A stretch of 64,000 nucleotides of DNA, from positions 118,236 through 182,235 of the forward strand of contig JAZQJV010000018.1 of NCBI GenBank assembly GCA_045541795.1, given 5' to 3'. This stretch comes from Patescibacteria group bacterium. Its GTDB lineage: Bacteria; Patescibacteriota; Microgenomatia; UBA1400; PJMF01. The notes under the pieces were generated by a model. That model searched no databases. It saw only the letters and a program-made list of their open reading frames with translations, and had not been told where the DNA came from. Position numbers and translations under genes: made by a program. Below are positions 389-61,727 of this stretch, piece by piece. Each line of letters begins with the position of its first letter. The first letter of the stretch is position 1.

Positions 389-565
389 GTGGGTAAAGAA
401 TTATCTAGTAATCGCACTGAACACGTAATTTATTTGCTTGACGAGCCAACCACTGGTTTGCATTTTGAGGATGTACAGCGATTGCTTTCGATTTTAAGTT
501 CGCTGGTAGGACAAAACTCCAAGTCATGGACAGGTAAGTTTTTGGTCACTGAATTGGCGCGTTAG
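389..565 (+). pseudogene. uvrA: uvrA 3' relic (second ABC domain Walker-B region joined to the extreme C-terminus; most of the gene is missing)
   Basis: Translation is [58 protein letters not shown]. It matches the UvrA pattern ..[23 protein letters not shown]...LL..L..L.. and then the C-terminal S.TG.FL tail. The IEHNLDVIK...GPEGG segment is absent and an in-frame stop lies just upstream at 386-388. Confidence 0.7.
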
Positions 566-600
566 TCGCAGAGAGTAATGTTTAGTTTTTGTGATGAATT

Positions 601-622
601 ACCCCGACCTTACGGTCGGGGT
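601..622 (+). terminator. GC hairpin after the uvrA relic (possible terminator, weak U tract)
   Basis: accccgacc / ggtcggggt stem with a ttac loop. Confidence 0.35.
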
Positions 623-834
623 TATGGACAAATGTGATATGAATTATTTTGAACAATTATGTCTACTCAAAATTATAGTGACTACGCCCAGATTAACCTG
701 ATAACACCTATTGAATATGATCACTATTCAATTAGTTTGTTTAGGTTTTATCAATGTGAAAATTAATAAGTTGCCCAGCACGAGTTTGTTATAATCGGCT
801 TTAGGTTAATAATTTGTCTGGTCACCAGGCATAA

Positions 835-1374
835 GTGCCAACATTATTAACTGGAGGTTATATCACTTTTGCCTGGAAATCCATATGCGACCATCATGAC
901 TATAATCGTATTGATTTGCATGCCTTTAGACTGGACAATAGCTTTACTTATACAGTTTCACTTACAGTCAATTATGACAAGGTTAATCTTTTAGAGAAAC
1001 TGCCAGTCTTACCAAAGTTCGAACAATTATTTATAACTTTCAATCAACCACAAATGCTACTGACCGATACTTTATTGTGGCACGCTGATCGTTGTTACCA
1101 ATTTCAGGGACAAACATTCAATTATGTCCTCATCAGAGCACTGGTAAAAGCCAATGGAGAAATTCCCTGGAACGATCAGCTGCTGCTGATGTATGATCCT
1201 GGTCCTCTTCATCTAAGTAGCTCGAAAATAGATGATAGAAGTACTTTAATTTGTCGTGCTATAGATGACCTTAACTTGGAGCTCAAACAAAAACTTAAAA
1301 TGAATTTTACACCGATACACAGACGTAAAAATAAATTTATTAAATTTGATAAACAAATTATACTATCGACATAG
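835..1374 (+). CDS. hypothetical protein (possible OmpR/CadC-like winged-helix at the C-terminus)
   Basis: 179-aa ORF with a GTG start in the AT-rich region. The stretch ..RSTLICRAIDDLNLELKQKL...FIKF weakly resembles a Trans_reg_C recognition helix and wing. Confidence 0.4.
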   Translation: MPTLLTGGYITFAWKSICDHHDYNRIDLHAFRLDNSFTYTVSLTVNYDKVNLLEKLPVLPKFEQLFITFNQPQMLLTDTLLWHADRCYQFQGQTFNYVLIRALVKANGEIPWNDQLLLMYDPGPLHLSSSKIDDRSTLICRAIDDLNLELKQKLKMNFTPIHRRKNKFIKFDKQIILST

Positions 1375-1469
1375 ACTCACTTAGCTGGAGTTACTCTAGG
1401 CTCAGTTTTTGCTTCTCTGGTAGTTTAATATCCCTGTCTAGAAATTAGTCGAGGCTATTAAACGACCGC

Positions 1470-1679
1470 ATGAGACAGAGCACAATAGTAGTACCAGCTC
1501 GCACCGACATCGGGAAAAAATATCGTACTAGCTACGACCCTATATCAGAGCAGGACGTTCACGATTTTATTGCTGCCGTTAAGGCAGATAGTGGATGGGT
1601 ATTGAAGTTTGATGAGGCAAAACAAACAGCCAATGATTTAATAGAGTTGGCCAAATTAGTCAATAAATATCAGGAATAA
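1470..1679 (+). CDS. hypothetical small protein
   Basis: 69-aa ORF; no recognisable motif. Confidence 0.35.
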   Translation: MRQSTIVVPARTDIGKKYRTSYDPISEQDVHDFIAAVKADSGWVLKFDEAKQTANDLIELAKLVNKYQE

Positions 1680-1735
1680 CTGTCTTAAAAGTCTTGCATT
1701 TTTAATCAATTTGTGATATAAAGACCACATTAATT

Positions 1736-2824
1736 ATGACAAACACAAAAAAGATCCAGACAGTTACTAGTAACGATATGTCGATGTCTAATGATCAAGA
1801 GTATCGGGAATGGTTAGTCGACTTAAAAACAAGATATCAACATAGTCGCATTAAAGCATCTATAAAAATTAATTATGAGGTCATTTTTTATTACTGGTCT
1901 GTTGGTCGTGACATTGTGATTAAAAAAGCCGAATCAAAATGGGGTAGTGGTTTTTATGATAATTTGAGTCGCGATCTACGACGAGAATTACCTGGTATAC
2001 AGGGATTATCAAAAACAAATCTCAAATACATGAAGTACTTTTATGATCTTTTTCCAGATGTGTTTACTGATAAGTCAATTCGTCCACAAGTTGTGGACGA
2101 ATTGGAGCAAATACCTTGGGGACATATCCGATATATTATAGATAAGTGTCGCGGTGATCAACAAAAGGTGATATTTTTCATCAATAAGACCGTGGAAAAC
2201 AACTGGTCGAGAGCAATGCTGCTAAATTTCCTGGATACAGATCTTTACGAGAGGCAAGGGAAGGCGATTACGAATTTTACCAATAAGTTAGCTTCGCCTC
2301 AAGGAGAATTAGCTCAACAGCTTACCAAAGATCCTTACAGTTTTGACTTTCTTACTATGAGAGAAAACTATCAAGAAAAAGAGCTTAAGGATGCCCTGAT
2401 TGCTAATATTGAAAGATTTCTGCTGGAACTTGGCAAAGGTTTTGCTTATATGGGACGGGAATACCGCTTACAAATCGGTGAAACTGAAAAATTTATAGAT
2501 ATGCTCTTTTACAACACTGTCCTGCGTTGTTACGTGGTAGTAGAAGTCAAAGTGGAGAAATTTGAATCCGGACATTTAGGGCAATTGGGATTGTATGTGA
2601 CCGCGGTTAATCATCAGCTCAAAAACGAAACTGACAATCCCACTATCGGTCTGTTGATTTGCAAGAGCAAAGAGAATGTGGTGGCGAAATACTCGCTAGA
2701 AAGCATGGCGGTGCCGATCGGAATATCAGAATATGAGTTGCAAAAAATCTATCCCGCTGATTTCAAGAGTAGTTTGCCAACGATAGAGGAGATAGAGAAT
2801 GAGCTGGCTGATAATAACGATTAG
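1736..2824 (+). CDS. YhcG/DUF1016 family PD-(D/E)xK nuclease (paralog a)
   Basis: KAESKWGSGFYDNLSRDL, PWGHIRYI, FAYMGREYRLQIGE..FIDMLFYN..CYVVVEVK (D..E.K core), PTIGLLIC. A TTGCAT-17-TATAAA promoter lies upstream near 1693-1721. Confidence 0.85.
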   Translation: MTNTKKIQTVTSNDMSMSNDQEYREWLVDLKTRYQHSRIKASIKINYEVIFYYWSVGRDIVIKKAESKWGSGFYDNLSRDLRRELPGIQGLSKTNLKYMKYFYDLFPDVFTDKSIRPQVVDELEQIPWGHIRYIIDKCRGDQQKVIFFINKTVENNWSRAMLLNFLDTDLYERQGKAITNFTNKLASPQGELAQQLTKDPYSFDFLTMRENYQEKELKDALIANIERFLLELGKGFAYMGREYRLQIGETEKFIDMLFYNTVLRCYVVVEVKVEKFESGHLGQLGLYVTAVNHQLKNETDNPTIGLLICKSKENVVAKYSLESMAVPIGISEYELQKIYPADFKSSLPTIEEIENELADNND

Positions 2825-2845
2825 TAAAAATTAAGGTAATAACAT

Positions 2846-4273
2846 ATGTTCACACCTTTTGGCAAGAATCTCGACAATCTAAGTTTTGAAGACATTCAAA
2901 AATTTTGCGATAAAGGTGTTGCTGAAAATATTTATATTGATTACAAGAAAGAAATTAATCAGAAGAATGATCATCTTGCCAAAACTATTGCGTCCTTTGC
3001 TAATACACATGGCGGCTGGATAATAATTGGAGTAGAAGATAAGAATGATCGTCCAAACTCTCCATTTAACGGGATTGACTATACAGATGGAATAGAGTCT
3101 AGTATAACTACTATAATTGTTGACAATATTTATCCATATGTCGAAGTTACATCAAAGGTTATTGTCAACCATGATAATAAAAGAGCTTTTGTTGTAGTGT
3201 ATGTCCCAGAAAGTCATAAAACACCACATTGGATTAACAGCAGAAGGGATCTTTATATTAGAGCTAATACTAGAACAAAAACTGGCAGAGATGATATTAA
3301 GAATAAAAACGAAGACTTGGATATTTACGCCACTTCTGAAAATTGGGAATTCTTAAGAAATAAAAGGGAAAGGTCTCAACAACTGGCAATAGAATTGGAA
3401 ACAGCTTTAAATCGTTTGTTTCTATCATATAAAGATAAAGAAGAACGTTTGTGGTATCAAAATAACGAAAAAGTTAAAAATAATCCGTCGCTGCAAAGTA
3501 TAATATCTGAAGATATGGATACACTCGACTGTGCAGATCCAAGTATCACAACAATTAAAAATAGGCGAGAGTTCAGAAGCGAATGTTATCATGATAACAT
3601 TAGTATTATTGTCCAGCCAGTTTTCCCATCATACGCTATTTCTTCACCGCGTGATTTGAGAGAACACTATTCGTCTAACAGCGGTGCAAACCTCACTAAC
3701 GTTGGTTCACTTGACGAAAACTACAAACTTGATTATTTTCAAAACGGGATAGTAACTTTTTTTACTCCCGACAATAAGACAGGCAACCATTGCGCATTTT
3801 TTGCTCAAGACATCTTTGGTTCGTGCATGGTAAAACACAAGATAGTTCAACACAATCGAAAGAAGATTGATAACTACCAGGGTTATGAAGTGCCGCCAAA
3901 TAGTAACATTATTGACTTTGAATACTTGATAGTTTATATTGAACAATTTTTAAAATATGCATCAGTTTTTTATAAACAAATTGGTTATTTAGGCGAACTT
4001 AGACTTAAGGTGGTCATGAATGTGCCAGAATGGTCATATATGATAATTCATGATTCAACCAAGAATTTTCCGCTTGCATATAGTAATTCTGATAAATATT
4101 TTCTTTGGGAGAAAGTTTTTATTAATGCTGATTTTGTTAACGATCAAGAACGAAATAAAATACTAAATACTATGTATGAAAGTATTGGATTCTTTTTTAA
4201 TTGTGACGAAATTCCTAAACAAATAATTAATAATCTGAGAAAGAATCCAAATAATGCTAATGAGCAACTTTAA
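2846..4273 (+). CDS. AlbA_2 (Schlafen-like, putative DNA-binding) domain protein with an uncharacterised ~330-aa C-terminal region
   Basis: The N-terminus reads ENIYIDYKKEIN...LAKTIASFANTHGGWIIIGVED...FVVVYVPES...YIRANTRT, which fits the AlbA_2 pattern. It starts 21 nt after the DUF1016a stop. Confidence 0.75.
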   Translation: MFTPFGKNLDNLSFEDIQKFCDKGVAENIYIDYKKEINQKNDHLAKTIASFANTHGGWIIIGVEDKNDRPNSPFNGIDYTDGIESSITTIIVDNIYPYVEVTSKVIVNHDNKRAFVVVYVPESHKTPHWINSRRDLYIRANTRTKTGRDDIKNKNEDLDIYATSENWEFLRNKRERSQQLAIELETALNRLFLSYKDKEERLWYQNNEKVKNNPSLQSIISEDMDTLDCADPSITTIKNRREFRSECYHDNISIIVQPVFPSYAISSPRDLREHYSSNSGANLTNVGSLDENYKLDYFQNGIVTFFTPDNKTGNHCAFFAQDIFGSCMVKHKIVQHNRKKIDNYQGYEVPPNSNIIDFEYLIVYIEQFLKYASVFYKQIGYLGELRLKVVMNVPEWSYMIIHDSTKNFPLAYSNSDKYFLWEKVFINADFVNDQERNKILNTMYESIGFFFNCDEIPKQIINNLRKNPNNANEQL

Positions 4274-4297
4274 CTTCCCGTCTCAAAAACTCCCCAA

Positions 4298-4364
4298 TCA
4301 TGCTATAATCAACCTCAAGTAACTGGGTTCGGATTTCCCGCCAGAAACCACCAAAAAATAGGAT
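4298..4364 (+). repeat. promoter-plus-leader repeat, copy 1 (TGcTATAAT 4301-4309; conserved 29-nt core 4324-4352)
   Basis: The core tgggtTcggatttcccgccagaaaccacc differs at one base from the copy at 6859-6887. Both cores lie 14 nt after their -10 box. No ORF follows this copy. Confidence 0.7.
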
Positions 4365-4423
4365 ATTGAAGTACGCAAATTATATCCATATAAAAACGAT
4401 ATTTTAAGCAAATTATTTGGTAT

Positions 4424-5590
4424 TTAATCATTATTGTTAATGTTTAAAAGTAATTGTAATCTTTTCATGATTTCATCGAATGTTATTATTATATTTCTGG
4501 AAACACTCTTTCTGAATAAGTTGAACGATCTTTCTTGTTCTTCAAGAAGTCCTGATTTGTTACCGATAATAATTATTCCTAATGGATCAAGAGCATTCAA
4601 GCGGTTATCTTCATAATCTTTTCCAATAAGAGTTGAAAAATTATCACTCGCAATTCTAATTTGATTTTCTAGTTGAACTATCGCACCACTCAATTCGTCA
4701 GACATGGAATAGCACACATTCTCTCCAACGGCATCTGAATTGCCTCTATATTGATGTCCAATAATGGCACTTTGCGGTGTTTTAATTTCAATAACTGCAA
4801 AGCTTTTATTTGAAAGATTTTGCAAAAGAAAATCAGCGGCGACTCCTCCTTGGCCGTTTCTTCCACGACTGTTCTTTCCTCCTAGATATGTTTCGCCATT
4901 CAAATAACAGACTGGACAATAAAACAAACTCTCAAAAATCCACTGATTTTCTGTGAAGAATGCTTGCCAAAAGTTTTCTTTTTGGTTATTATTCATATTT
5001 TTCGCAATTGTATTAATTGCATTCTGCAATTTGGCTAGTAATATAATATTTTCTAATACTCTGATGTTTCCTTTTCCTAAATCTCTTAACTTGGTAATAA
5101 CCATTTCCTTATTTTTAATATCGCCAATTTGCAATAAAACACTTTCTATATTTCCTTCTCCAATAGATATTGTTGTGGTTCCAAATTTAATACCGTTTTC
5201 ATTTAGAGTCTCTCTAATTAACGGTAAATGCTCAAAGAGATTTTTCATGGCTTCACCATCAAGGTTGAGATCATAAAATTCTCCTTTTCTTAACTTAGTA
5301 ACAGATAGGCCTTTATAACTTTGCCAGTTGTCATTAATTCCTTTTCTTTCCCATCTGAAACCTCCTCGCAATGGTTTGTCAGTTTGAGATGGGTCTACCC
5401 ACTTTGGGTAAAAAAGTAATCTTGTGCTTTCAGTTTCTTTTAGTATAATTGGGGAAATATCAGCGGTTTTATTGGAAGTAGATTTTATTGTTATATCTTT
5501 TGATTCTTTCTGTTTGTCTGTAAATCCCTTGCGAGGTAGCGTGAAATCTATTTCTCCTGAAATATTGCTAAAATCATATTTTGGAGTCAT
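4424..5590 (-). CDS. sduA: Shedu-like DUF4263 (SduA-type) PD-(D/E)xK nuclease
   Basis: The C-terminal half reads NFWQAFFTENQWIFESLF...GVAADFLLQN...FAVIEIKTP...SDELSGAIVQLENQI, which fits the DUF4263 pattern at ~390 aa. The track start is a TTG at 5602. The ATG at 5590 preceded by GAAAG is more likely. Confidence 0.7.
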   Translation of the reverse strand: MTPKYDFSNISGEIDFTLPRKGFTDKQKESKDITIKSTSNKTADISPIILKETESTRLLFYPKWVDPSQTDKPLRGGFRWERKGINDNWQSYKGLSVTKLRKGEFYDLNLDGEAMKNLFEHLPLIRETLNENGIKFGTTTISIGEGNIESVLLQIGDIKNKEMVITKLRDLGKGNIRVLENIILLAKLQNAINTIAKNMNNNQKENFWQAFFTENQWIFESLFYCPVCYLNGETYLGGKNSRGRNGQGGVAADFLLQNLSNKSFAVIEIKTPQSAIIGHQYRGNSDAVGENVCYSMSDELSGAIVQLENQIRIASDNFSTLIGKDYEDNRLNALDPLGIIIIGNKSGLLEEQERSFNLFRKSVSRNIIITFDEIMKRLQLLLNINNND

Positions 5591-5608
5591 GGTGGCTTTC
5601 AATCAAAA

Positions 5609-6736
5609 TTACCTATTTGCTTCTAGCAACTTTTTCTCTATCTCCTCTATCGTCGGCATCGTTCCTTCCACCTTTTGCGGATACAACTTCTCCAGTTCGT
5701 ACTCCGAAATTCCCAATGGTTGATTGCTAGATTCCAAAGCATACTGAGCGATTAAATTATCTTTTTGCTTGCAAATGAGCAAACCGATAGTCGGATTATC
5801 TCGTCCTTCTTTTTGTAAAAGGTGATTGCAAGAAACCACGTAACCGCCAAGTTGCCCCAAATCGGCAAAATCAAATTCGCCAATTTTCACTTCAACCACA
5901 ACGTAACAAGACAACTGTAAATTATAGAAAAGCAAATCAATAAATTTTTCTTTCTCGCCGATTTGCAGTCGATACTCTTTTCCCACATACGCGAAGCCCG
6001 TGCCAAGTTCTAATAAAAATTTGGTTATATTTTCTAGCAGGGCATCTTTTAATTTACGTTCATTGTATTTATCGGTAATACCAGTAAAAGCAAAATTATA
6101 TGGATCTTTTGTTAATTCCTGAGCTAAATCGCTAGTAACATTGGGTAAGGTTTTGCCAAAATTCGTCAATGCTTTTCCTCGTCGATCATAAAGATCGGTT
6201 TCAATAAAATTGAGTAGCATATCTCGGCTCCAACCATTTTCTATTGTTTGGTGAACAAAAAAGAGTGCTTTTTGTGGTTCTGTTTTGAATTTATCAATTA
6301 ACAGCTTATGATGGCCCCACGGAACAGAAAAAATGTCGCTTTCAATTTTCTCAATGACTTGCTGAGTAATTACATTACTTTCTATTTGCTCCCCAACTTG
6401 GGGAGCAATTTCGAAATATTGATGGTAAAGTATATAAAAGTTTTTCATGTACAACAAATTTGTCGGCGAAAAACACGTTGCGTCAGGATTGAGAGTTTTA
6501 AGGTCTCGGCTGAGATTTTTCATGAAACCACTGCTCCATTTACTTTCGGCTTTCATTACCACAATGTCTCTGCCCAAATCATAGTAAAAACGAAGCATTT
6601 CCCGATTAACTTTTACTGCTGCTCTAACTTGGCTCAAGCGATAACGAGAAGAAAGCTTCCCAATCCACGAGGCATAATTTTCATCTAGAATTGTTAGTGA
6701 CTGAACTTGTTTTGCAACCTGTTTTTTCTCTGTCAT
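5609..6736 (-). CDS. YhcG/DUF1016 family PD-(D/E)xK nuclease (paralog b)
   Basis: KAESKWSSGFMKNLSRDL, PWGHHKLL, FAYVGKEYRLQIGE..FIDLLFYN..CYVVVEVK, PTIGLLIC. It is colinear with 1736-2824 over its whole length. Confidence 0.85.
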   Translation of the reverse strand: MTEKKQVAKQVQSLTILDENYASWIGKLSSRYRLSQVRAAVKVNREMLRFYYDLGRDIVVMKAESKWSSGFMKNLSRDLKTLNPDATCFSPTNLLYMKNFYILYHQYFEIAPQVGEQIESNVITQQVIEKIESDIFSVPWGHHKLLIDKFKTEPQKALFFVHQTIENGWSRDMLLNFIETDLYDRRGKALTNFGKTLPNVTSDLAQELTKDPYNFAFTGITDKYNERKLKDALLENITKFLLELGTGFAYVGKEYRLQIGEKEKFIDLLFYNLQLSCYVVVEVKIGEFDFADLGQLGGYVVSCNHLLQKEGRDNPTIGLLICKQKDNLIAQYALESSNQPLGISEYELEKLYPQKVEGTMPTIEEIEKKLLEANR

Positions 6737-6815
6737 AGTGGCTATTACTTATAGCACAATAACGCTATTTTGTCAATACTGATAATTAATTATTATTGGC
6801 ATTTATTTTCAATTC

Positions 6816-6903
6816 TTGCAAAAACAACTTCATACTGTTATAATCAGTTTCAAATAATTGGGTGCGGATTTCCCGCCAGAAACCACCCCAAAAAGATGGG
6901 ATT
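6816..6903 (+). promoter_or_regulatory. promoter-plus-leader repeat, copy 2 (TTGCAA 6816-6821, 17-nt spacer, TGtTATAAT 6836-6844; core 6859-6887)
   Basis: Consensus-like promoter followed by the conserved core tgggtGcggatttcccgccagaaaccacc. Possible helix GGGTG 6860-6864 / CACCC 6884-6888 and inner hairpin GCGG-atttc-CCGC. It precedes the zinc-ribbon/TM2 gene. Confidence 0.6.
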
Positions 6904-6922
6904 ACTGCGATGAAAGTGAAAC

Positions 6923-7256
6923 ATGACAGATGAAAAAACAAAATACTGTAAACATTGCGGTTCGCTTATTGATGTAGAATTGCATAATATGCCCGAAGTG
7001 TGGCAAGCAGGTCGAACAAGTAAAAGCCGAGCTTCCAAATGTAGTGATCAATAACAATAACACCAATTCGAATATAAACTATGCTGGTGCTGTGGGGAGC
7101 GGGCGGCCTATCAATAAGTGGATAGCTTTGGGTTTATGTCTTTTTCTGGGCATATTCGGTGCTCATAAGTTTTATGAAGGAAAGATTGGCATGGGAATAT
7201 TGTATTTGTTTACATTTGGTTTGTTTAGTCTTGGTTGGTTTTTAGATATTTTTTAA
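6923..7256 (+). pseudogene. zinc-ribbon + TM2 domain protein, interrupted by a +1 frameshift
   Basis: Frame A from ATG 6923 gives MTDEKTKYCKHCGSLIDVE... Frame B gives ..CIICPKCGKQVEQVKAELPNVV.. and continues into the 7044-7256 ORF with the TM2 motif (INKWIALGLCLFLGIFGAHKFYEGK). The two CxxC halves of the ribbon therefore sit in different frames, and a TAG at 6975-6977 blocks frame B upstream. Confidence 0.6.
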
Positions 7257-7355
7257 TCCTAACAAAGCCTAATCCTTATTACATATAATACTTTTACATT
7301 TGCGTTTTTATTATAACTACGTTATAATAACACAAACTTTAAGGAAAATATAAAC

Positions 7356-8429
7356 ATGAAAAATCATCGAAAATTCCATCCTCGCATTATTGTCAATATC
7401 ATCTGTCTTTTTTCATTGGCATTATCTCACATTATTTTTTCGCTACCGATTAAAATAATTGATACAGTTTATGCCGTCGAGCGTGAAACTGTCACTGTGA
7501 GCCGTGTGATTGATGGTGATACAATCGTTTTGAATGATGGGCGAAAGGTTAGATATATTGGAATTGATACACCAGAAACAGTTCATCCAACAAAAAATGT
7601 GCAGTGTTTTGGGAAACAAGCCAGTAACAAAAATAGAGAATTAGTCCTTGGTAAAACTGTGGAACTGGAAAAAGATATCAGTGAAACTGATCGCTATGGA
7701 CGTTTACTCAGATATGTATATTTGGATGGCGTCATGATTAATCATAAATTAGTCGCTGAAGGTTATGCCACAACCGTAACCTATCCTCCAGATGTTAAGT
7801 ATAAAGAAGAATTCTCCAAAGCTCAGGCGCAGGCAAGACAAGCAAGACTTGGGCTATGGGGTAATGAATGCAACGAAAGCAGCAGCACTCACGCATCCTC
7901 AAACAACAATGCTAGCTCAAATACAAATAAAATGGATTCGTCAAGCACATCGTCATCATCTCAAAACAACAAAACTCAAAATGACCATGAAGGCAACCAA
8001 GCTTCTACTCAACCAACTAACACTAGCGCACAAAAATGTCCATCAAATTGTAGTGAGGCCAAAAGCATGGGAATGGTTAACATTACACCGTCGCATCCAT
8101 GCTGGCAAGAAAAATTTGATGGCGATAAAGATGGCGTGGGTTGTGAAAGTGACAACCGGTCTACCAATACAAAAACAACTAACAAATCCAATAATGTCAA
8201 TAAACAGACCAGTGCTACGCCGGCACCCACGCCAGTGCCAAGTCGCGCCCCAACGCCAGAACCAACCCCACCGCCTACGTCAGTGCCAGCTCCAGCTGCG
8301 CCAACCCAATCTTGTCCAAATAACTGTACCCAAGCAAAGGCAATGGGAATGGCCAATATGACACCTTCTCATCCTTGTTGGCAATCTAAATTTGACCGAG
8401 ATAAAGACGGTATTGGTTGCGAAGACTAG
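7356..8429 (+). CDS. secreted/anchored thermonuclease (SNase family) with two C-terminal Excalibur Ca-binding domains
   Basis: VIDGDTIVL..GRKVRYIGIDTPE...RYGRLLRYVY...LGLWG, plus two copies of CP.NC..AK.MGM.N.TPSHPCWQ.KFD.DKDG.GCE separated by a PT-rich linker. It has an N-terminal hydrophobic anchor. Confidence 0.85.
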   Translation: MKNHRKFHPRIIVNIICLFSLALSHIIFSLPIKIIDTVYAVERETVTVSRVIDGDTIVLNDGRKVRYIGIDTPETVHPTKNVQCFGKQASNKNRELVLGKTVELEKDISETDRYGRLLRYVYLDGVMINHKLVAEGYATTVTYPPDVKYKEEFSKAQAQARQARLGLWGNECNESSSTHASSNNNASSNTNKMDSSSTSSSSQNNKTQNDHEGNQASTQPTNTSAQKCPSNCSEAKSMGMVNITPSHPCWQEKFDGDKDGVGCESDNRSTNTKTTNKSNNVNKQTSATPAPTPVPSRAPTPEPTPPPTSVPAPAAPTQSCPNNCTQAKAMGMANMTPSHPCWQSKFDRDKDGIGCED

Positions 8430-8438
8430 AAAGTAAAA

Positions 8439-9119
8439 ATGTCACAAAAAGATAATAGCAAACATTCTTGCAGAATAATCATGGCCGCATTGCTAGTGCT
8501 TCTAAGCATTGCATTGCTGCATAAATCTTTTTTTGCTGCCGCCTTCACTATCTGCTACGCATATCTCATCTCGCCACTATCAATTCAATTGGTAAGTAAA
8601 ATATGTAAGAAAGAAAATGAGAAATGGCTATATTCAACCATGACTTTTATTTTTGCTCTTTGCTGGATGACCACAATTCAAACTGGTCAGCCACAAATGG
8701 ATAATGTGTTAACGCAAAATAGTGAAAAAAACGCATCGCTAGAGAATGCGTCAACACAAAATAATGAAAAAATCGCTTCACTAGAAAAAGAGCTCCAATC
8801 AGTTAAGAACGAAAGAGATGAAATTCAAGCAAACAACCAAAAAAGAGCCATTTCAGCTGCCAAATCATATTTGGAATACAGTCCAATGTCGAGCCGAGAG
8901 TTGATTAAGCAACTCGAGTTAGAAGAATTTTCTCATGAAGACGCAGCATACGGTGTAGAGCATGCTGATATCAATTGGAACGATCAAGCATCACGGTCAG
9001 CAGTCCTCTTTATTGAGTTTGCTAATCCGTCAACCGAAGAATTAAAAAAACAACTTGAGTACGAAGGTTTCACAAGCAACGAAATAAAATTCGCCATTGA
9101 GCATAATAGTAATGGGTAA
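8439..9119 (+). CDS. membrane protein with two Ltp-type (host cell surface-exposed lipoprotein) repeats
   Basis: AISAAKSYLEYSPMSSRELIKQLELEEFSHEDAAYGVEH and ASRSAVLFIEFANPSTEELKKQLEYEGFTSNEIKFAIEH fit the Ltp repeat pattern. It also has N-terminal TM segments and a short coiled-coil repeat. Confidence 0.7.
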   Translation: MSQKDNSKHSCRIIMAALLVLLSIALLHKSFFAAAFTICYAYLISPLSIQLVSKICKKENEKWLYSTMTFIFALCWMTTIQTGQPQMDNVLTQNSEKNASLENASTQNNEKIASLEKELQSVKNERDEIQANNQKRAISAAKSYLEYSPMSSRELIKQLELEEFSHEDAAYGVEHADINWNDQASRSAVLFIEFANPSTEELKKQLEYEGFTSNEIKFAIEHNSNG

Positions 9120-9148
9120 ATGACTCTATTGCTTCCAGTAAGGAAAGT

Positions 9149-9490
9149 ATGCCATCTACCAAAAGTTACCTTAATCACCTTCTAACTCAATTCTCGCAGT
9201 TGGATGATATTTCTTACCGCTCGATGATGGGGGAGTATATCATTTATTTCAAAGGCAAAGTAGTAGGTGGAATTTATGATGATCGATTTTTGGTCAAGAC
9301 AACAAAATCTGCACTCGCGTTGATGCCAAACACAAGCAAAGAATTACCATATCCCGGTGCGAAAGAAATGTTGTTGGTAGACGATACGGGAGACAAAGTA
9401 TTTTTACGCGAGCTGCTGACCGCGATATATGAGGAGCTGTCAGTGGTAAAGAAAAAAGAAAGCACATTAAAACGTTTATTAACGAATTGA
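9149..9490 (+). CDS. TfoX N-terminal domain protein
   Basis: L..L..L..ISYRSMMGEYIIYFKGKVVGGIYDDRFLVK fits the TfoX_N pattern. Confidence 0.65.
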   Translation: MPSTKSYLNHLLTQFSQLDDISYRSMMGEYIIYFKGKVVGGIYDDRFLVKTTKSALALMPNTSKELPYPGAKEMLLVDDTGDKVFLRELLTAIYEELSVVKKKESTLKRLLTN

Positions 9491-9502
9491 CATTCATTGT
9501 CC

Positions 9503-10165
9503 TCATCTTTGACGTCTCGCTCTCTCCATATACTCTCTTTGCACCCGCATAAATAATTCCTTATCTGCCAAAAGCGTCCGGATCTCATTTAAAAAACGCT
9601 CGTACTCCGGATCAGAAAAAAAGTATTTCGCATAGCCGCCCTCACCAAATTTTTCTTTCAGGTGTTGCCAACTTCTCACAAACAATTGCTCGTCACTAAA
9701 ATCCGGATGTAAATTTTTACCATACACAAAACTTCGATACAAACAATCTTCTACGCTCGTATTTCTGTCCGCCGTGGACACAATTTTCCCGTACACGCTC
9801 CGGGGCTCGTGATTGCTTGAAGCACGATGATCTTCGATTGCCTCTTTAATCAGTTTTAATTGTTTACCGCTAAAAAAATCAGGCAAATGCTTATCCTCAC
9901 TCATCATCCGCGCAGAAATAATCTCATGCTTGGCTGGATCAATGTGATGTCCCAGATCATGATAAGCAGCCACAGTGTAGACAATGTCTAAGTTAACGTC
10001 GGTCAGTTTTTGCGCCAAGTTAATACTTCTTTCAATGACATATTTAATGTGTTTTAAATTATGAGCTGGCTCATTTTGAGCGTACTGCGGGAAAACATTT
10101 TGCTGGATGTATGTTTGTAATTTTCTATTGACGGTAGGATAAAAATTATTTTCTAACATAAACAT
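9503..10165 (-). CDS. HD-domain phosphohydrolase
   Basis: AAYHDLGHHID and STADR motifs. The start is moved to the ATG at 10165, which lies 6 nt after a TATAAT box (plus-strand 10172-10177), so the gene is probably leaderless. Confidence 0.75.
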   Translation of the reverse strand: MFMLENNFYPTVNRKLQTYIQQNVFPQYAQNEPAHNLKHIKYVIERSINLAQKLTDVNLDIVYTVAAYHDLGHHIDPAKHEIISARMMSEDKHLPDFFSGKQLKLIKEAIEDHRASSNHEPRSVYGKIVSTADRNTSVEDCLYRSFVYGKNLHPDFSDEQLFVRSWQHLKEKFGEGGYAKYFFSDPEYERFLNEIRTLLADKELFMRVQREYMERARRQR

Positions 10166-10269
10166 TACTATATTATAACACGAGCAGACATTTTGAAAGC
10201 TCAAAAATATAGCGTCCAGTTTTTACAACTTTCGCTCATTTCACCTTACCGGTATGGTATAATACCCCT

Positions 10270-10695
10270 ATGCAAAAATCAAATAATCTTATTTCAATTA
10301 TTTTGTGTGTGATCGCGGTGGTGAGTCTCGCTCTCAATGTCTACTGTGTCAATCAAAAACACACTCAGCCGGCGCCATCAAGTCAACTTGCCGAGGCACA
10401 GGCGGCCTACAAACTTTACATCGTCATCCCAGATAGTGTCACTGATACAGATAATTACATCCGTGAGCTGGAAACAATACTTGCCAATCGTGTCCCCGGC
10501 TACACGATGTATCCCACTCGTGGCGGCTCGCATGAAGACGACGGCAGCATGAGTTATCAGACCACTTTGGTCTGCGAGCTTTACGGCACTGATAAACAAA
10601 CTGTCACCCAAATTGCCCATCAAGTGATGACCAGTTTTAATGTGAACAGTGTGCCGGTGGCAACTCTTAGTTCACAGTGGGAAATAATTCGTTGA
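10270..10695 (+). CDS. hypothetical membrane-anchored protein
   Basis: 141-aa ORF with an N-terminal TM segment. TGgTATAAT (10255-10263) lies 6 nt before the ATG. Confidence 0.55.
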   Translation: MQKSNNLISIILCVIAVVSLALNVYCVNQKHTQPAPSSQLAEAQAAYKLYIVIPDSVTDTDNYIRELETILANRVPGYTMYPTRGGSHEDDGSMSYQTTLVCELYGTDKQTVTQIAHQVMTSFNVNSVPVATLSSQWEIIR

Positions 10696-28684: not shown

Positions 28685-28880
28685 GAGGGGAAACGCATTC
28701 CGCTGTCACCAAGATTATCGGAACTGTATCCCATCTAGTAAATACGGATTGGCTGGCGCCGTGGCTTCATCAGCCGTCAGATTAAAACGTTTCACCGTAT
28801 TCCATAAAAGATATAGTTTGTCAAAGGTGAATGCAACTGCCACCCACATTGTCATCCAAGCGTGATATAATAAGATGTAG

Positions 28881-33496: not shown

Positions 33497-33512
33497 ATGA
33501 TATAATAGTACC

Positions 33513-40089: not shown

Positions 40090-40563
40090 ATGAAAAAATG
40101 GAGTGTGATCGCAGTTTTAATTTTGAGCCTGTTTGCGGGACGGCCAGCACATGCTGCCCCTTACGAAAGTTGGAAGAGTTCCAAAATGTGCACAGGCGCT
40201 AAAGACACGCTTTCTGAAGACGTTGCCACTATCGCTGGTATCGTTTGCCTGATCGCCAATGCCTTAAATGCCGTCCTGACGCTGTTTTCCTTCGTCGGCT
40301 TCCTCATGTTTGTGTATGCCAGTTTTATGCTCATGATCTCTGGCGGTAATCCCAGCGGCTTTGAAACAGCGAAAAATACCTTTACTTACGCAATTTTTGG
40401 CTTCGTGCTGGCTTTATCATCATTTGTGATCATCAATCTTATTTCTTATTACACTGGCCTCAATAGCTTCTTTGTCATCAAATTCTTGCCCAATACTATT
40501 TCTGGCAGCGCCAGCAGTGGCGGTACAGGCGGTAGCGGTACGGGAGGTACAAGCGGGCCATAA
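40090..40563 (+). CDS. small TrbC/VirB2-like (CPR T4SS-pilin-type) membrane protein, paralog 2, with a Gly/Ser/Thr-rich tail
   Basis: Signal peptide MKKWSVIAVLILSLFAGRPAHA, then two TM helices flanking MISGGNPSGFETAKNTF, and the tail GSASSGGTGGSGTGGTSGP. Confidence 0.6.
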   Translation: MKKWSVIAVLILSLFAGRPAHAAPYESWKSSKMCTGAKDTLSEDVATIAGIVCLIANALNAVLTLFSFVGFLMFVYASFMLMISGGNPSGFETAKNTFTYAIFGFVLALSSFVIINLISYYTGLNSFFVIKFLPNTISGSASSGGTGGSGTGGTSGP

Positions 40564-40564
40564 T

Positions 40565-43500
40565 ATGCGCATTGATAAATTCTTACCGGCAAAACGTTGG
40601 CAAACTGTTATCATTGGGGTCAGTTTGGTTTTTGGCTGCATGATGTCGCTGCAAAATTTGCACCTAGACCTAGTTTCTGACGTCTGGAGTGCGCAGTATC
40701 AGGATGTTTATAGTCAAGTGATGAGTATTTTCCAGTCACGAGGTGAGACCATCCCTACTAATGTCGCCGCCGACATCATCGAGCGTTCTGGCGGTGATCA
40801 AAATCAAGCTATAGCTACTCTGGAAAAGTATCTCAACGTCTACAAAGCTTTGCAAGCGCGTAATCCTGATGTCTCTTCTCTAGTCATCAGTTTGATCGCC
40901 AAACAGTACCCAGATAATTACTCACAGGCCAGCACAGCTTTGTCGCAGACGGTCTCGACAGCTAAGCAGATCCAGGACTACCAAAATATAAATACTATTG
41001 CGGCGCAAATTGTGGCCGCTTTAGGGATTAATAATAGTTTCACGCAGACACTCTCAGACGCTTATGACGTCGTCAATAATGCCAGTAATATGGGCCAGCA
41101 GATGAACGTCAACAATATCGCCGCTCAAATTTTGTCTGCGCTCGATCTTACCGGAGAACTATCCTCGGGTTTTGGCAGCCAGGCTGATTTGCAAAATACG
41201 CTTCAAAGCATGACTAGATCGTCCCTCTTGCAAAGTCAAGACGCTAAGGATGTCCTCGGTGCCTTAGACATTTTCACGCCGGGTAATTTCTCGTCTGATG
41301 CCGGCAGCGTGAGTAAAATTGCCAGTGATCTTTTAGGCGGAAAACTTTCAGACACGGTCAAAAGTGTGGTAGATAAAGAAATTGCCGAAAGTTTGGGCGC
41401 GCTTAATCTAGGTAGTTTGTCTGGTCTTAGCGAAGGTAAAGGGAATTTTTCTGGCATTCTTGAGCAGGTGACATCTAAAACTGCCGGTGAAGCTGGCAAA
41501 TACAAGGATGTCTACGAAACCGTCACCAAAGGTATGAGCACTCAGGACATCGTCAAAATGGGCACCGACAAAATCAAAGACAGTATCTTAGATAATTCTA
41601 CCCTCGACCAGGAAAAAGCCGCTCAGGAAACCAAAAAAGAACTTGACCAAGAGGCAAAAAAAGCCGTAGACGAGGAAAAAAAACTACAGGATGAAGGATT
41701 GATTGATCCGTCGAGCGTACCAAGCAGTAGCCCTTCGCCTTCTTCAACTCCCGATCCTTCAGCCAGTCCTTCACCATCACCTTCCGCAAGTCCTTCTCCT
41801 GGTGCCAGCCCGTCGCCAGGGGCGAGCCCGAGTCCCTCTCCGTCTGCTAGTCCGTCACCGAGCGCTTCGCCGTCGCCGTCAGCGTCACCGAAAGCAACTG
41901 AATACATCAGAAGTGGTGCACAGGGATCCTTTATCACCGCTATCATAGATAAACTCAGAATGAGCGGCACGGCCGAAAATATTAAGGAAGGTTTTGCTGC
42001 TAAAATGATCGCCAAGAATTTATCGCTGGAGGGATATGAAGCCTATCATATCAAAACTGTCAGCCGTTTGCAGCCCTATATGAATTTTTCTCATCGCCGT
42101 AACAATGTAGATTTTAGCCAAGCCAAAGTACCCCTCATGCGCAATAGTAACTACAAACCTGAACGGCTTAATTCTGCCGAAAATTATTACGGCTATAATG
42201 CCCGGGTAGGAGTGAATGACACTGATATCCTTACTGAGTCAGCCTGGGTCGCCAAAATGTCGCAGCCTGTCAAATGCAGCCTCAAAGCCGCCAATCTTGC
42301 CTATATCGTGCGCACTTGCGACATTCTTCATGAAGACACATGCGAAGGTCTATACCTGACCGCTGATGGCAGTGAAACCATCAAAGATACTAAGATCAAA
42401 GTCCATGATTTGGCTCTTGCGGTGACAGCCATTCTCATCACTGATGGCAGCCAACGTGACGAGTTAATCAATGCGGTGGCGCTCGCTTTGGCGACGGGCA
42501 AAGGCGATCTTAGCGGCATCATGGGACAAGTAACCAATATTATTAATAGTATTGGCGGTGAGAATTCAGATGTACTGTCGCGTTTGCTGGCTATGGCTTC
42601 AGATAAAGTCATGGAACCTATCTATGATAACCGGATTCCTTTTTGTGAGACACTTTATAATACTCCAGCCACAGCGGCTACGGATGAGACGGGCTTACTG
42701 CTAGAAATGGCCAAAGGCAACATCCAAGCGGAGGATATGGGCAAAATTTATCTGCGCTGGGCGATGGAAAAATTGGACTTTTACCTGGCACGTGAATACC
42801 GCACTGCATACCTAGTGCAAACTACAAGAATCTGCCCGGTACGTCGGCAATTTATCTGCTCTAAATCCTCACCCGTATATAAGTATGCACCAGCACCCAC
42901 AGGCACCTGCTTAGTACAACTCCCCTGTATACCTGGTATCACCCCAGATCAGGTGCGTGTATATCCATTCAAAATCCCAGATCTTTTCACCAATAAGAAT
43001 TTTTGCAAAACGTCTGATCTAGAATATCCTGGGCTCTTGAATGACGTCAAATGTGAGCCCTCTGAGCAATTCCAATATGCAGACATGATACAAGAATATC
43101 ACGATCCGGCACTTTTACAAAAAAATTTCCTCATGAATATGGAGCAGATCCGCGCTGAACGTGAAGAGTTTTTAGCAAAACGCAAAACTCGCGCCCAGCA
43201 CTCTGCCGAAGCCTGTACGGCCAATAGTGCTACCACTCTTGCCAAAATGCAAGAGGCCGACTTAACATGCACCGACAAAAATGTGCTTAGCGGTGATCTG
43301 ATTGACTGTGAAAACTGCAATGGCGAAGCCAGACGAGTCAAAGCGGCTCTAGTGAAAGTCATCAACGGTGCCATCAAACATGGCGAACTTTACAAAATCG
43401 AAAATCCCAACGGCAACTCGCCGGGTACTGATGATGTCAGCGGCGGGCTTAGTAGTTCCGCCATTACCACTTCTGCCGTGAATCCGCTCGAACCAGCTAT

Positions 43501-57904: not shown

Positions 57905-57959
57905 ATGCGTTATTATACCATACAAAAAGCTGTCTGCATCGGTAAAATTCACCCAGGCA

Positions 57960-58000
57960 AAAATTGCCTCTTGACAAATGACCCATAATGTGATATAATA
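57960..58000 (+). repeat. duplicated consensus promoter, copy A (TTGACA 57971-57976, 17 nt, TATAAT 57994-57999)
   Basis: 41 nt match 61687-61727 with 2 mismatches. It points into the 3' end of the minus-strand glycogen operon. Confidence 0.7.
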
Positions 58001-61686: not shown

Positions 61687-61727
61687 AAAATTGACTCTTG
61701 ACAAATGACCCATAATGTGGTATAATA
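61687..61727 (+). repeat. duplicated consensus promoter, copy B (TTGACA 61698-61703, 17 nt, TATAAT 61721-61726)
   Basis: See copy A. It is followed by a 27-codon sORF (61735-61818) and by a second promoter (TTGACA 61805-61810, TGgTAAAAT 61824-61832). Confidence 0.7.

What the first reader, a model, noticed from the sequence alone, without database searches (positions are those of the whole stretch)
4298..6903. Duplicated promoter plus 29-nt conserved leader flanking the DUF1016b-Shedu module
Copy 1 is TGcTATAAT 4301-4309 with its core at 4324-4352. Copy 2 is TTGCAA-17-TGtTATAAT 6816-6844 with its core at 6859-6887. Both share tgggtKcggatttcccgccagaaaccacc (28 of 29 identical) at the identical distance of 14 nt from the -10 box, followed by an A-run and GATRGGAT-like sequence. 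Copy 2 leads into the zinc-ribbon/TM2 gene. Copy 1 leads into nothing and faces the 3' end of the minus-strand Shedu gene. There are two readings. (a) The 2.5-kb DUF1016b-Shedu block inserted into or duplicated the 5' region of the TM2 gene, so the repeats are an insertion scar. (b) The core is a small cis-acting RNA: inner hairpin GCGG-AUUUC-CCGC, outer GGGUG/CACCC in copy 2, then an A-rich tail, giving a pseudoknot-riboswitch-like layout. On this reading copy 1 would additionally drive antisense transcription across the defence module.
Basis: seen in the sequence. Interest (0 to 1): 0.6.

Follow-up and report, generated by a model that had tools for sequence, protein, structure and literature searches.

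The report
Duplicated promoter-leader flanking a Shedu module
An 85-base promoter and transcript-start sequence occurs twice as a direct repeat on either side of a 2.45-kb anti-phage gene pair; it most likely marks recombination that placed those genes there, and I found no support for a riboswitch.

Summary
An 83-86 nt direct repeat (4284-4366 and 6819-6904, period 2535) carries TGnTATAAT, a 29-nt core identical at 28 of 29 positions starting 14 nt after the -10 box, an A-run and GGAT. The 22-mer core occurs only twice in the window, against 0 in shuffles.

The repeat brackets one self-contained minus-strand operon, DUF1016/PDC-S02 plus Shedu with its own promoter, inside a low-GC island.

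The riboswitch or pseudoknot reading is not supported:
- There is no Rfam match.
- Folding is no better than shuffled sequence.
- The proposed helices are partly lost in copy 1.
- Zero covariation was seen, though with two copies this says little.
- The motif is absent upstream of TM2 homologues.
- No real copy turned up in GTDB genomes, JGI metagenomes, IMG/VR, phages or plasmids.

The genome has no close relative in the databases, so insertion polymorphism could not be tested.

Best reading (about 0.5): two diverged copies of one promoter/5'-leader cassette. Copy 2 serves a twice-frameshifted prophage-type TM2 gene. Copy 1 is an orphan pointing antisense into Shedu. The arrangement fits homologous recombination between regulatory cassettes, as with PeSLs in T4-type phages. 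It is not a target-site duplication.

The core is better conserved than its flanks (28/29 versus 37/55). Some sequence-specific role remains possible.

The parts
4284..4366 (+). Copy 1 of the promoter-leader cassette. It has a degenerate -35 (TCTCAA, 4281-4286), an extended -10 (TGCTATAAT, 4301-4309), an inferred TSS near 4316, the core at 4324-4352, and the A-run plus GGAT at 4353-4364. It starts 11 nt after the AlbA_2 stop codon and points at the 3' end of Shedu.
   Evidence: no + strand ORF of 20 aa or more starts downstream of it before the Shedu gene, only an antisense 60-aa ORF at 4434-4616
6816..6904 (+). Copy 2 of the cassette. It has the -35 TTGCAA at 6816-6821, a 17-nt spacer, the extended -10 TGTTATAAT at 6836-6844, an inferred TSS near 6851, the core at 6859-6887, and CC + A-run + GATGGGAT at 6888-6902. 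It forms the 72-nt 5' UTR of the TM2 gene.
   Evidence: it is the only one of the two copies listed by the promoter scan, at 10 of 12 matches with TG
4323..4344 (+). The only fold shared by both copies: a bulged hairpin CUGG-GUU-CGG-AUUUC-CCG-CCAG. The copy 2 equivalent is 6858-6879, where the closing pair is U-G.
   Evidence: RNAalifold gives 7 pairs, -5.75 kcal/mol, and 0 compensatory changes. Single-sequence energies are -5.8 and -7.3 kcal/mol. It is not followed by a U-run, so it is not terminator-like.
4424..5602 (-). Shedu (SduA) nuclease gene. The database copy starts at ATG 5590 and is 388 aa.
   Evidence: Pfam SduA_N + SduA_C; PADLOC SduA at 1e-68; P0121 is 100% identical
5609..6736 (-). 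DUF1016/YhcG PD-(D/E)xK nuclease gene (PADLOC candidate system PDC-S02). It is paralogue 2 and the first gene of the bracketed operon.
   Evidence: 53% identical to paralogue 1
6745..6785 (-). Own promoter of the DUF1016-Shedu operon (TTGACA, 17 nt, TGTGCTATAAG on the minus strand), back to back with copy 2.
   Evidence: alignment with the upstream region of DUF1016 paralogue 1; reading of the sequence
6923..7288 (+). Zinc-ribbon/TM2 gene served by copy 2. It has two frameshifts: an extra base near G6977, and one in the T6 run at 7249-7254.
   Evidence: three-frame translations; alignment to homologues of 120-156 aa; Pfam TM2
2846..4273 (+). AlbA_2/Schlafen-domain gene whose stop codon lies 11 nt before copy 1. 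With DUF1016 paralogue 1 (1736-2824) it forms a second, oppositely oriented DUF1016 + X pair.

Best explanation
The two copies are diverged paralogues of one small regulatory cassette. The cassette is a sigma-70-type promoter with an extended -10 box plus the first 50 nt or so of its transcript.

Copy 2 is the working promoter and 5' UTR of a prophage-type zinc-ribbon/TM2 gene. Copy 1 is an orphan. It sits directly after the AlbA_2 gene, has lost its -35 element, has no gene to serve, and points antisense into Shedu.

The direct-repeat geometry around a self-contained, oppositely oriented defence operon (DUF1016/PDC-S02 + Shedu with its own promoter) is what homologous recombination between two related cassettes produces. 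Two routes would give it:
- Campbell-type integration of a circular intermediate that carried one cassette.
- Loss or replacement of a gene that copy 1 once served.

The same repeats could later delete or circularise the module.

What is shown: the repeat, its limits, its uneven conservation, the promoter-like signals, the gene content, the island context, and the failure of the RNA-family tests. What is inferred: transcription from either copy, the recombination history, and any role of the core. The core is probably kept by selection on a modest leader feature (a small hairpin or a protein-binding site) or by a gene-conversion patch. It is not a ligand-sensing fold.
For: - The repeat is real and limited to about 85 nt, with no homology beyond either end.
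- The 2535-nt period holds exactly one operon plus that operon's own promoter.
- The whole region lies in a low-GC island, 30-40% GC from about 400 to 10300 against about 48% elsewhere. The island is built of defence and prophage-moron genes: PDC-S02 twice, AlbA_2, Shedu, TM2, SNase-Excalibur, and an Ltp superinfection-exclusion protein.
- TGNTATAAT is a genuine promoter signal in this genome, with 24 sites against 2.4 expected and most of them just upstream of ORFs. Both copies are therefore plausible promoters.
- Copy 1 lacks a -35 element and a downstream ORF, as expected for an orphan.
- TM2 homologues are prophage lysogeny-module genes and can occur as tandem paralogues (L019/L020). An ancestral second cassette-plus-gene is therefore plausible.
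- Promoter-plus-stem-loop cassettes that start just after a stop codon are documented to flank variable genes, mediate indels, and form mini-circles in T4-type phages (PMC2839356; PMC4122927).
- All tests for a structured RNA family were negative.
Against: - No relative with or without the module could be found, so no insertion polymorphism or hybrid junction has been seen.
- There are only two copies, whereas PeSL-type systems have tens.
- GC content does not set the module apart from its neighbours in the island.
- No recombinase lies nearby.
- The core is more conserved than its flanks: 28/29 against 37/55, Fisher one-sided p = 0.0013 (chosen post hoc). The longest identical run is 23 nt, permutation p = 0.018. 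Recombination alone does not explain this, and it points to a function I cannot name.
- The hairpin is weak and is not a terminator.
Confidence: 0.5

Rival explanations
1. The core is an operator, a DNA site for a transcription factor placed at about +8 to +37 of both promoters. One regulator would then control TM2 expression and antisense transcription across the Shedu operon together.
For: The core is conserved at the nucleotide level at a fixed distance from the -10 box in both copies. It contains an imperfect palindrome, GATTTC-N6-GAAACC, seen by reading the sequence. RNA folding is unremarkable, which leaves a DNA-level constraint as an option. A second pair of near-identical + strand promoters (57960 and 61687) shows the same geometry around a minus-strand operon.
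Against: The palindrome matches at 5 of 6 positions with 6-nt arms. By my estimate that would arise by chance in roughly a quarter of 29-mers. No regulator gene was recognised in the island. There is no third site in 64 kb. The TM2 gene is frameshifted, so its regulation may no longer be under selection.
Confidence: 0.15
2. The core is a small cis-acting structured RNA, riboswitch- or pseudoknot-like or a protein-binding leader, that controls the downstream gene.
For: The core is a GC-rich conserved island in AT-rich intergenic DNA. It sits at a fixed position in the leader and is followed by an A-run. A hairpin can form in both copies, and the one flank difference, C4323 versus U6858, keeps the closing pair as C-G or U-G.
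Against: - No Rfam family matches at E <= 10.
- Folding z-scores are +0.6 and -0.3.
- There is no compensatory change.
- The outer GGGUG/CACCC helix and the fourth inner pair exist only in copy 2.
- No leader of this kind occurs upstream of TM2 homologues.
- Exact 17- to 20-mer scans returned only chance hits, 17 of 18 in what look like coding sequence and one in a 5' UTR. The collections scanned were 185,579 species genomes, 241 million metagenome records and IMG/VR.
- Copy 1 has nothing to regulate in cis.
Confidence: 0.12
3. The core is a site-specific recombination (att-like) site, possibly derived from the 3' end of a tRNA gene. On this reading the module is an integrated cassette.
For: There is a 23-nt identical core flanked by diverged arms, in direct orientation around a discrete block. 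Reading the sequence, the core resembles a T-arm (GGGTTCGgATtTCCC) followed by 7 nt, then A, then CCA. That is the layout of a tRNA 3' end.
Against: - ARAGORN and the Rfam tRNA model see nothing there.
- The T-arm resemblance needs two insertions, and the implied acceptor 5' strand is absent.
- Homology extends about 40 nt upstream through a promoter and about 12 nt downstream in both copies. A core-only att site would not do this.
- No integrase or recombinase gene was recognised in the island.
- The core has no integron attC or dif features, judged by reading the sequence.
Confidence: 0.06
4. The conserved stretch is coding. One option is the C-terminus of a small minus-strand protein: 4315-4431, whose ATG overlaps the Shedu stop codon, and 6850-7038. 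Both end in ...WFLAGNPxPxx*. The other option is a + strand upstream ORF running from TTG 6858 to TGA 6926, whose stop overlaps the TM2 ATG in an ATGA arrangement.
For: The ORFs exist. The 3-nt indel between the copies keeps the reading frame. The ATGA overlaps resemble translational coupling, seen by reading the sequence.
Against: The peptide similarity is confined to the DNA repeat. The copy 2 minus-strand ORF is antisense to the TM2 coding sequence. The + strand uORF begins with TTG about 7 nt from the inferred TSS. In copy 1 it begins with CTG and stops after 12 codons. All 23 identical bases include the third codon positions, and the mismatches show no 3-nt periodicity.
Confidence: 0.05

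Closest known systems
PeSL (promoter-early stem-loop) mobile regulatory cassettes of T4-type phages (Arbiol et al. 2010, PMC2839356; Comeau et al. 2014, PMC4122927)
   Same: Both are short intergenic repeats. Each combines a strong sigma-70-type promoter with a GC-rich stem-loop. Each begins just after the stop codon of the upstream gene. Each lies in a hyperplastic region of accessory genes and brackets variable genes as direct repeats. Recombination between copies can therefore insert, delete or circularise the gene in between.
   Different: Only two copies were seen here, against about 50 per phage genome. The setting is a bacterial chromosome island, not a lytic phage. The hairpin is weak, lies downstream of the inferred TSS, and is not terminator-like. 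No indel polymorphism or mini-circle has been shown. There is no sequence similarity.
Phage 'morons' (an accessory gene with its own promoter inserted between phage genes)
   Same: The TM2, SNase-Excalibur and Ltp genes are typical prophage accessory or lysogeny-expressed genes. TM2 has its own promoter.
   Different: The moron concept does not include a duplicated promoter-leader on the far side of a neighbouring module. That morons carry their own promoter and terminator is from my own knowledge and was not tested here.
preQ1-I-type H-type pseudoknot riboswitches
   Same: Both show a short stem-loop followed by an A-rich tail close to the start of a 5' UTR.
   Different: No match to RF00522 or any other Rfam model at E <= 10. 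The outer helix is not kept in copy 1. The downstream gene is unrelated to queuosine metabolism. No homologues were found.
Campbell-type or att-flanked integrated elements
   Same: Both have direct repeats with an identical core bracketing a discrete acquired block.
   Different: There is no integrase and no tRNA gene. The repeats are homologous well beyond the core, and that homology includes a promoter.

Membership tests
Any described structured RNA family (Rfam 15), including riboswitches | Match to a curated covariance model | tested here: not met
   A gathering-threshold scan of the window finds only tRNA-Glu. A permissive scan of 4200-7000 at E <= 10 gives four noise hits, none on either copy.
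Any described structured RNA family (Rfam 15), including riboswitches | Conserved secondary structure supported by covariation | tested here: inconclusive
Only two sequences are available. There are 0 compensatory changes.
Any described structured RNA family (Rfam 15), including riboswitches | Folding more stable than composition predicts | tested here: not met
   z = +0.6 for copy 1 and -0.3 for copy 2 over about 60 nt; 142 and 66 of 200 shuffles fold at least as well.
Any described structured RNA family (Rfam 15), including riboswitches | Recurrence upstream of homologous genes in other genomes | tested here: not met
   Eight loci carrying TM2 homologues (65% identical to the window protein in the table) have no similar sequence. 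Exact-word scans of the genome, metagenome and viral collections give chance hits only. Only exact 17- to 20-mers could be scanned, so diverged homologues would be missed.
PeSL-type mobile regulatory cassette | Sigma-70-type promoter inside the repeat | tested here: met
   TGnTATAAT is present in both copies. Copy 2 also has TTGCAA with a 17-nt spacer. TGNTATAAT is tenfold enriched in this genome. This is a consensus match only; transcription was not measured.
PeSL-type mobile regulatory cassette | Stable stem-loop acting as terminator or attenuator | tested here: not met
   The hairpin has 7 bp with a bulge, at -5.8 to -7.3 kcal/mol, and has no U-run. It is not found by the terminator scan.
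PeSL-type mobile regulatory cassette | Many copies concentrated in variable regions | tested here: inconclusive
   There are two copies in 64 kb, both in the low-GC island. The rest of the 288,690-bp source contig and genome could not be read.
PeSL-type mobile regulatory cassette | Indels between related genomes that begin and end at the cassettes; mini-circles | not testable with these tools
   No close relative exists in the collections, and there is no read data.
Transposon target-site duplication | Short, exact direct repeats next to terminal inverted repeats and a transposase | tested here: not met
   The repeats are about 85 nt and 77% identical. No transposase or terminal inverted repeats were found.
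tRNA-targeted integrative element (att sites) | A tRNA gene at one junction, an integrase inside the element, and repeat identity confined to the core | tested here: not met
   There is no tRNA at either copy and no integrase domain. Homology extends into both arms.
CRISPR repeat / solitary repeat unit | A repeat matching a CRISPR array or cas locus of the host | tested here: inconclusive
   There is no array in the 64-kb window, and none of the window ORFs I scanned carried a Cas domain. The sequence flanking the core is also repeated, unlike spacers. The rest of the genome was not seen.

The most novel reading that the evidence does not exclude
The cassette is a functional, portable control unit. 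Its 29-nt leader core, acting as RNA or as an operator, would respond to one regulator at both sites. When the prophage-type TM2 promoter fires, copy 1 would simultaneously send antisense transcription through the Shedu/PDC-S02 nuclease operon and damp it. Recombination between such cassettes would shuffle defence modules in this island, making it a bacterial counterpart of phage PeSLs. A second promoter pair with the same geometry in this window (57960 and 61687) would then be another example of the same design.
Probability: 0.12. Interest if true: 0.6.

Novelty: new member of a known kind. Interest (0 to 1): 0.25.

Why it matters
If the recombination reading holds, this would be a sequence-level example of how a defence module (PDC-S02 + Shedu) can be moved into a genomic island with no dedicated recombinase. 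It would use short homologous promoter cassettes and leave an orphan promoter aimed antisense at a nuclease gene. That would be useful for understanding defence-island turnover, but it is incremental. If the core proves to be a regulatory element, it would be a lineage-restricted one with only two known copies. As it stands, the main value of this check is negative: the riboswitch-like idea should not be pursued on present evidence.

Tried and rejected
1. Rfam at gathering and permissive thresholds gave nothing on either copy.

2. Exact-word scans for the core:
- The 20-mer in IMG/VR gave 0 hits.
- The 19-mer in GTDB species genomes gave 2 hits.
- The 19-mer in JGI metagenomes gave 10 hits.
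- The 17-mer and a '-10 + core' pattern in IMG/VR gave 6 and 1 hits.

On inspection, all hits but L002 look like chance matches inside coding sequence; no ORFs were called on them. L002 is a 21-nt match in the 5' UTR of a gene I read as glnA-like, in an Acetivibrionales MAG. It has no Rfam family and scores only 19 bits with the two-copy model. I treat it as coincidence.

3. Megablast and blastn of the island and the cassette against phages and plasmids gave nothing, apart from E = 0.9 noise.

4. Exact-protein look-ups for SNase, AlbA_2, DUF1016, Shedu (P0121) and GH3 (P0207) found none on record in the positional index. The cluster look-up for P0121 gave no accession.

5. The viral-contig relative searches for Shedu, SNase, DUF1016 and AlbA_2 found none.

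6. Shedu homologues at 50-54% identity sit inside type I R-M operons, not beside DUF1016, and carry no motif.

7. The idea of an intrinsic terminator for the convergent AlbA_2 and Shedu genes was rejected. There is no U-run, and the scan found nothing between 4274 and 4423.

8. The tRNA-3'-end, CRISPR-repeat, attC/dif, small-ORF and uORF readings were considered and set aside for the reasons given under the rival explanations.

9. A literature search for Shedu together with DUF1016 found no paper.
Full report
**Observation.**
- Copy 1 has TGCTATAAT at 4301-4309 and the 29-nt core at 4324-4352.
- Copy 2 has TTGCAA at 6816-6821, a 17-nt spacer, TGTTATAAT at 6836-6844, and the core at 6859-6887.
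- The gap from the -10 box to the core is 14 nt in both copies.
- The core differs only at T4329 versus G6864.

The repeat finder reports a 75-nt direct repeat at 79% identity with a spacing of 2535. The MAFFT alignment gives about 84 homologous columns at 77% identity, with a 3-nt indel right after the core and then AAAAA-AT-GGAT. Beyond about 4283/6818 on the left and about 4366/6904 on the right, local alignments score no better than shuffled sequence. The unit is therefore a discrete cassette of about 85 nt.

The 22-mer core occurs twice in the window with up to 3 mismatches allowed, and never in 100 shuffles. nhmmer and blastn-short find no degenerate third copy.

**Context.**
The first 10 kb or so of the window is a low-GC island, 30-40% GC against about 48% elsewhere. 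It contains the following features:

| Feature | Coordinates | Strand |
|---|---|---|
| UvrA-like fragment | 389-565 | + |
| Unknown ORF | 835-1374 | + |
| DUF1016/YhcG nuclease (PADLOC PDC-S02), paralogue 1 | 1736-2824 | + |
| AlbA_2/Schlafen-domain protein | 2846-4273 | + |
| Copy 1 | 4284-4366 | + |
| Shedu | 4424-5602 | - |
| DUF1016/PDC-S02, paralogue 2 | 5609-6736 | - |
| Copy 2 | 6816-6904 | + |
| Zinc-ribbon/TM2 gene | from ATG 6923 | + |
| SNase-Excalibur nuclease | 7356-8429 | + |
| Ltp-type superinfection-exclusion lipoprotein | 8439-9119 | + |

The two DUF1016 proteins are 53% identical. The minus-strand operon has its own promoter, TTGACA-17-TGTGCTATAAG at about 6745-6785, back to back with copy 2. 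One repeat period therefore holds exactly one self-contained transcription unit.

The TM2 gene carries two frameshifts, an extra base near 6977 and one in the T6 run at 7249-7254. Once these are bridged, it aligns end to end with homologues of 120-156 aa.

**Promoter reading.**
TGNTATAAT occurs 24 times in the window against 2.4 expected, mostly just upstream of ORFs. It is a real promoter signal in this organism. Copy 2 passes a sigma-70 consensus scan at 10 of 12 matches with TG. Copy 1 does not, because its -35 (TCTCAA) matches at only 2 of 6 positions. No + strand ORF follows copy 1. Transcription itself is inferred, not shown.

**RNA reading.**
The tests for a structured RNA were all negative.
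- No Rfam model matches either copy, even at E <= 10 on a 2.8-kb search space.
- Minimum free energies of the roughly 60-nt leaders lie within the shuffle distribution, z = +0.6 and -0.3.
- The RNAalifold consensus is a bulged 7-bp hairpin (CUGG-GUU-CGG-AUUUC-CCG-CCAG) at -5.75 kcal/mol with no compensatory change.
- No terminator-like site lies between the convergent AlbA_2 and Shedu genes.

**Search for homologues.**
The word scans used 19-mers of the core on 185,579 species genomes and 241 million metagenome records. On IMG/VR they used 17- to 20-mers and a '-10 + core' pattern.

They returned 19 loci (18 from the core-word scans, one from the '-10 + core' pattern), and all but one look like coding-sequence chance matches. 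The exception is L002. It is a 21-nt match in the 5' UTR of a gene I read as glnA-like, in an Acetivibrionales MAG. It has no Rfam family and scores only 19 bits (E = 0.08) with a covariance model built from the two copies. I regard it as coincidence.

The best TM2 homologues are 66-67% identical. They sit in prophage lysogeny modules behind a cI-like repressor, sometimes as tandem paralogues, and carry no such leader.

The only close Shedu hit is the source genome itself (P0121, on a 288,690-bp NCBI contig). The next hit is 54% identical, and the two homologues (50-52% identical) whose contigs I fetched lie inside type I R-M operons. A core-genome GH3 protein has only itself at 100% and then 59%. 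No close relative is therefore available, and the presence/absence test could not be run. Phage and plasmid collections hold nothing similar, and the viral-contig protein searches found nothing.

**Pattern of conservation.**
Identity is uneven: 28 of 29 in the core against 37 of 55 outside it. Fisher's one-sided test gives p = 0.0013, with boundaries chosen post hoc. The longest identical run is 23 nt, permutation p = 0.018. Outside the core, the best-kept stretch is the -10 box.

This rules out a recent target-site duplication or a fresh segmental duplication. It means that two already-diverged homologous cassettes share a constrained or converted core.

**Interpretation.**
The most economical account has three parts.
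- The island contains a small promoter-plus-leader cassette in two diverged copies.
- Copy 2 serves TM2.
- Copy 1 lost or never regained a gene, and now faces the 3' end of Shedu.

The direct-repeat bracket around a complete, oppositely oriented defence operon fits homologous recombination between such cassettes. That could be integration of a circle carrying one cassette, or replacement of the gene copy 1 once served.

The closest documented parallel is the PeSL cassettes of T4-type phages. These are promoter-plus-stem-loop repeats that start just after stop codons, cluster in hyperplastic regions, mediate indels, and form mini-circles (PMC2839356; PMC4122927). This locus meets the promoter feature. 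It fails the terminator feature. It cannot be tested for copy number genome-wide or for polymorphism. So it works like a PeSL at most, and membership is not claimed.

The excess conservation of the core keeps three readings alive at lower probability: an operator (imperfect palindrome GATTTC-N6-GAAACC), a leader RNA, and an att-like site. The resemblance to a tRNA 3' end is not backed by ARAGORN or Rfam. It also conflicts with homology that runs into the promoter.

**Verdict.**
The repeat is real, and the insertion reading is favoured in modified form. The riboswitch reading is unsupported. Confidence in the recombination-cassette account is about 0.5, because no comparative or expression data exist. 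Interest is low to moderate.

Noticed in passing
window 57960-58000 and 61687-61727: There is a second pair of near-identical + strand promoters (41 nt, 95% identical; TTGACA-17-TGTGaTATAAT). The geometry matches the finding. The pair brackets a block of minus-strand genes: BadF-like 58050-59090, GH57 59051-60274, and GT4/GT5 60274-61557. Each promoter is followed 9-11 nt after the -10 box by the ATG of a small Lys-rich ORF, 31 aa from 58011 and 27 aa from 61736.
   Followed up: partly
window 6923-7288: The zinc-ribbon/TM2 gene downstream of copy 2 has two frameshifts, an extra base near G6977 and one in the T6 run at 7249-7254. It is either a pseudogene or an assembly with indel errors.
   Followed up: yes
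whole window, e.g. 10255-10263, 28863-28871, 33498-33506, 57912-57920(-): TGNTATAAT is tenfold enriched, with 24 sites against 2.4 expected. Several sites lie only 6-11 nt before a start codon, which suggests frequent leaderless or near-leaderless mRNAs in this organism.
   Followed up: no
window 1736-4273 and 4424-6736: Two oppositely oriented two-gene units each begin with a DUF1016/PDC-S02 nuclease (the two are 53% identical). The second gene differs: AlbA_2/Schlafen-domain in one, Shedu in the other. The 3' coding ends of the two DUF1016 genes form a 32-nt, 88% inverted repeat (2775-2806 and 5627-5658) that could invert the segment between them.
   Followed up: partly
L021 4864-5919; L022/L023 5001-6062: Two of the closer Shedu homologues (P0123, 52% identical; P0140, 50%) sit inside type I restriction-modification operons. 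One lies between hsdM and hsdS, the other just upstream of an hsdS gene. Neither sits beside DUF1016.
   Followed up: partly
L002 1765-1785: An Acetivibrionales MAG carries a 21-nt exact match to the core, GCGGATTTCCCGCCAGAAACC. It is preceded by a half-repeat, CGCGATTTCCCG. It lies in the 5' UTR of a gene I read as glnA-like, behind a TTGCAA promoter-like site. No Rfam family matches. This is probably coincidence.
   Followed up: partly
window ~400-10300: A low-GC island (30-40% against about 48%) starts next to a truncated UvrA-like fragment (389-565). It holds defence genes and prophage-moron-type genes: SNase-Excalibur with an internal 111-nt repeat (8037-8147 and 8313-8423), an Ltp superinfection-exclusion protein with a 42-nt tandem repeat (8703-8785), TfoX_N, and an HD domain protein. 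No integrase or flanking att repeat was found.
   Followed up: partly
window 4315-4431 (-): A 38-codon hydrophobic ORF has an ATG that overlaps the Shedu stop codon (AATGATTAA) and runs through copy 1 on the minus strand. It may be a coupled small gene or may be chance.
   Followed up: no
window 40090-45725: A T4SS_pilin-domain ORF (40090-40563) is followed by two very large ORFs with no Pfam match. These are 1221 aa and 572 aa and overlap by about 130 nt. The nearest relative's contig (L025) also carries T4SS_pilin genes.
   Followed up: no
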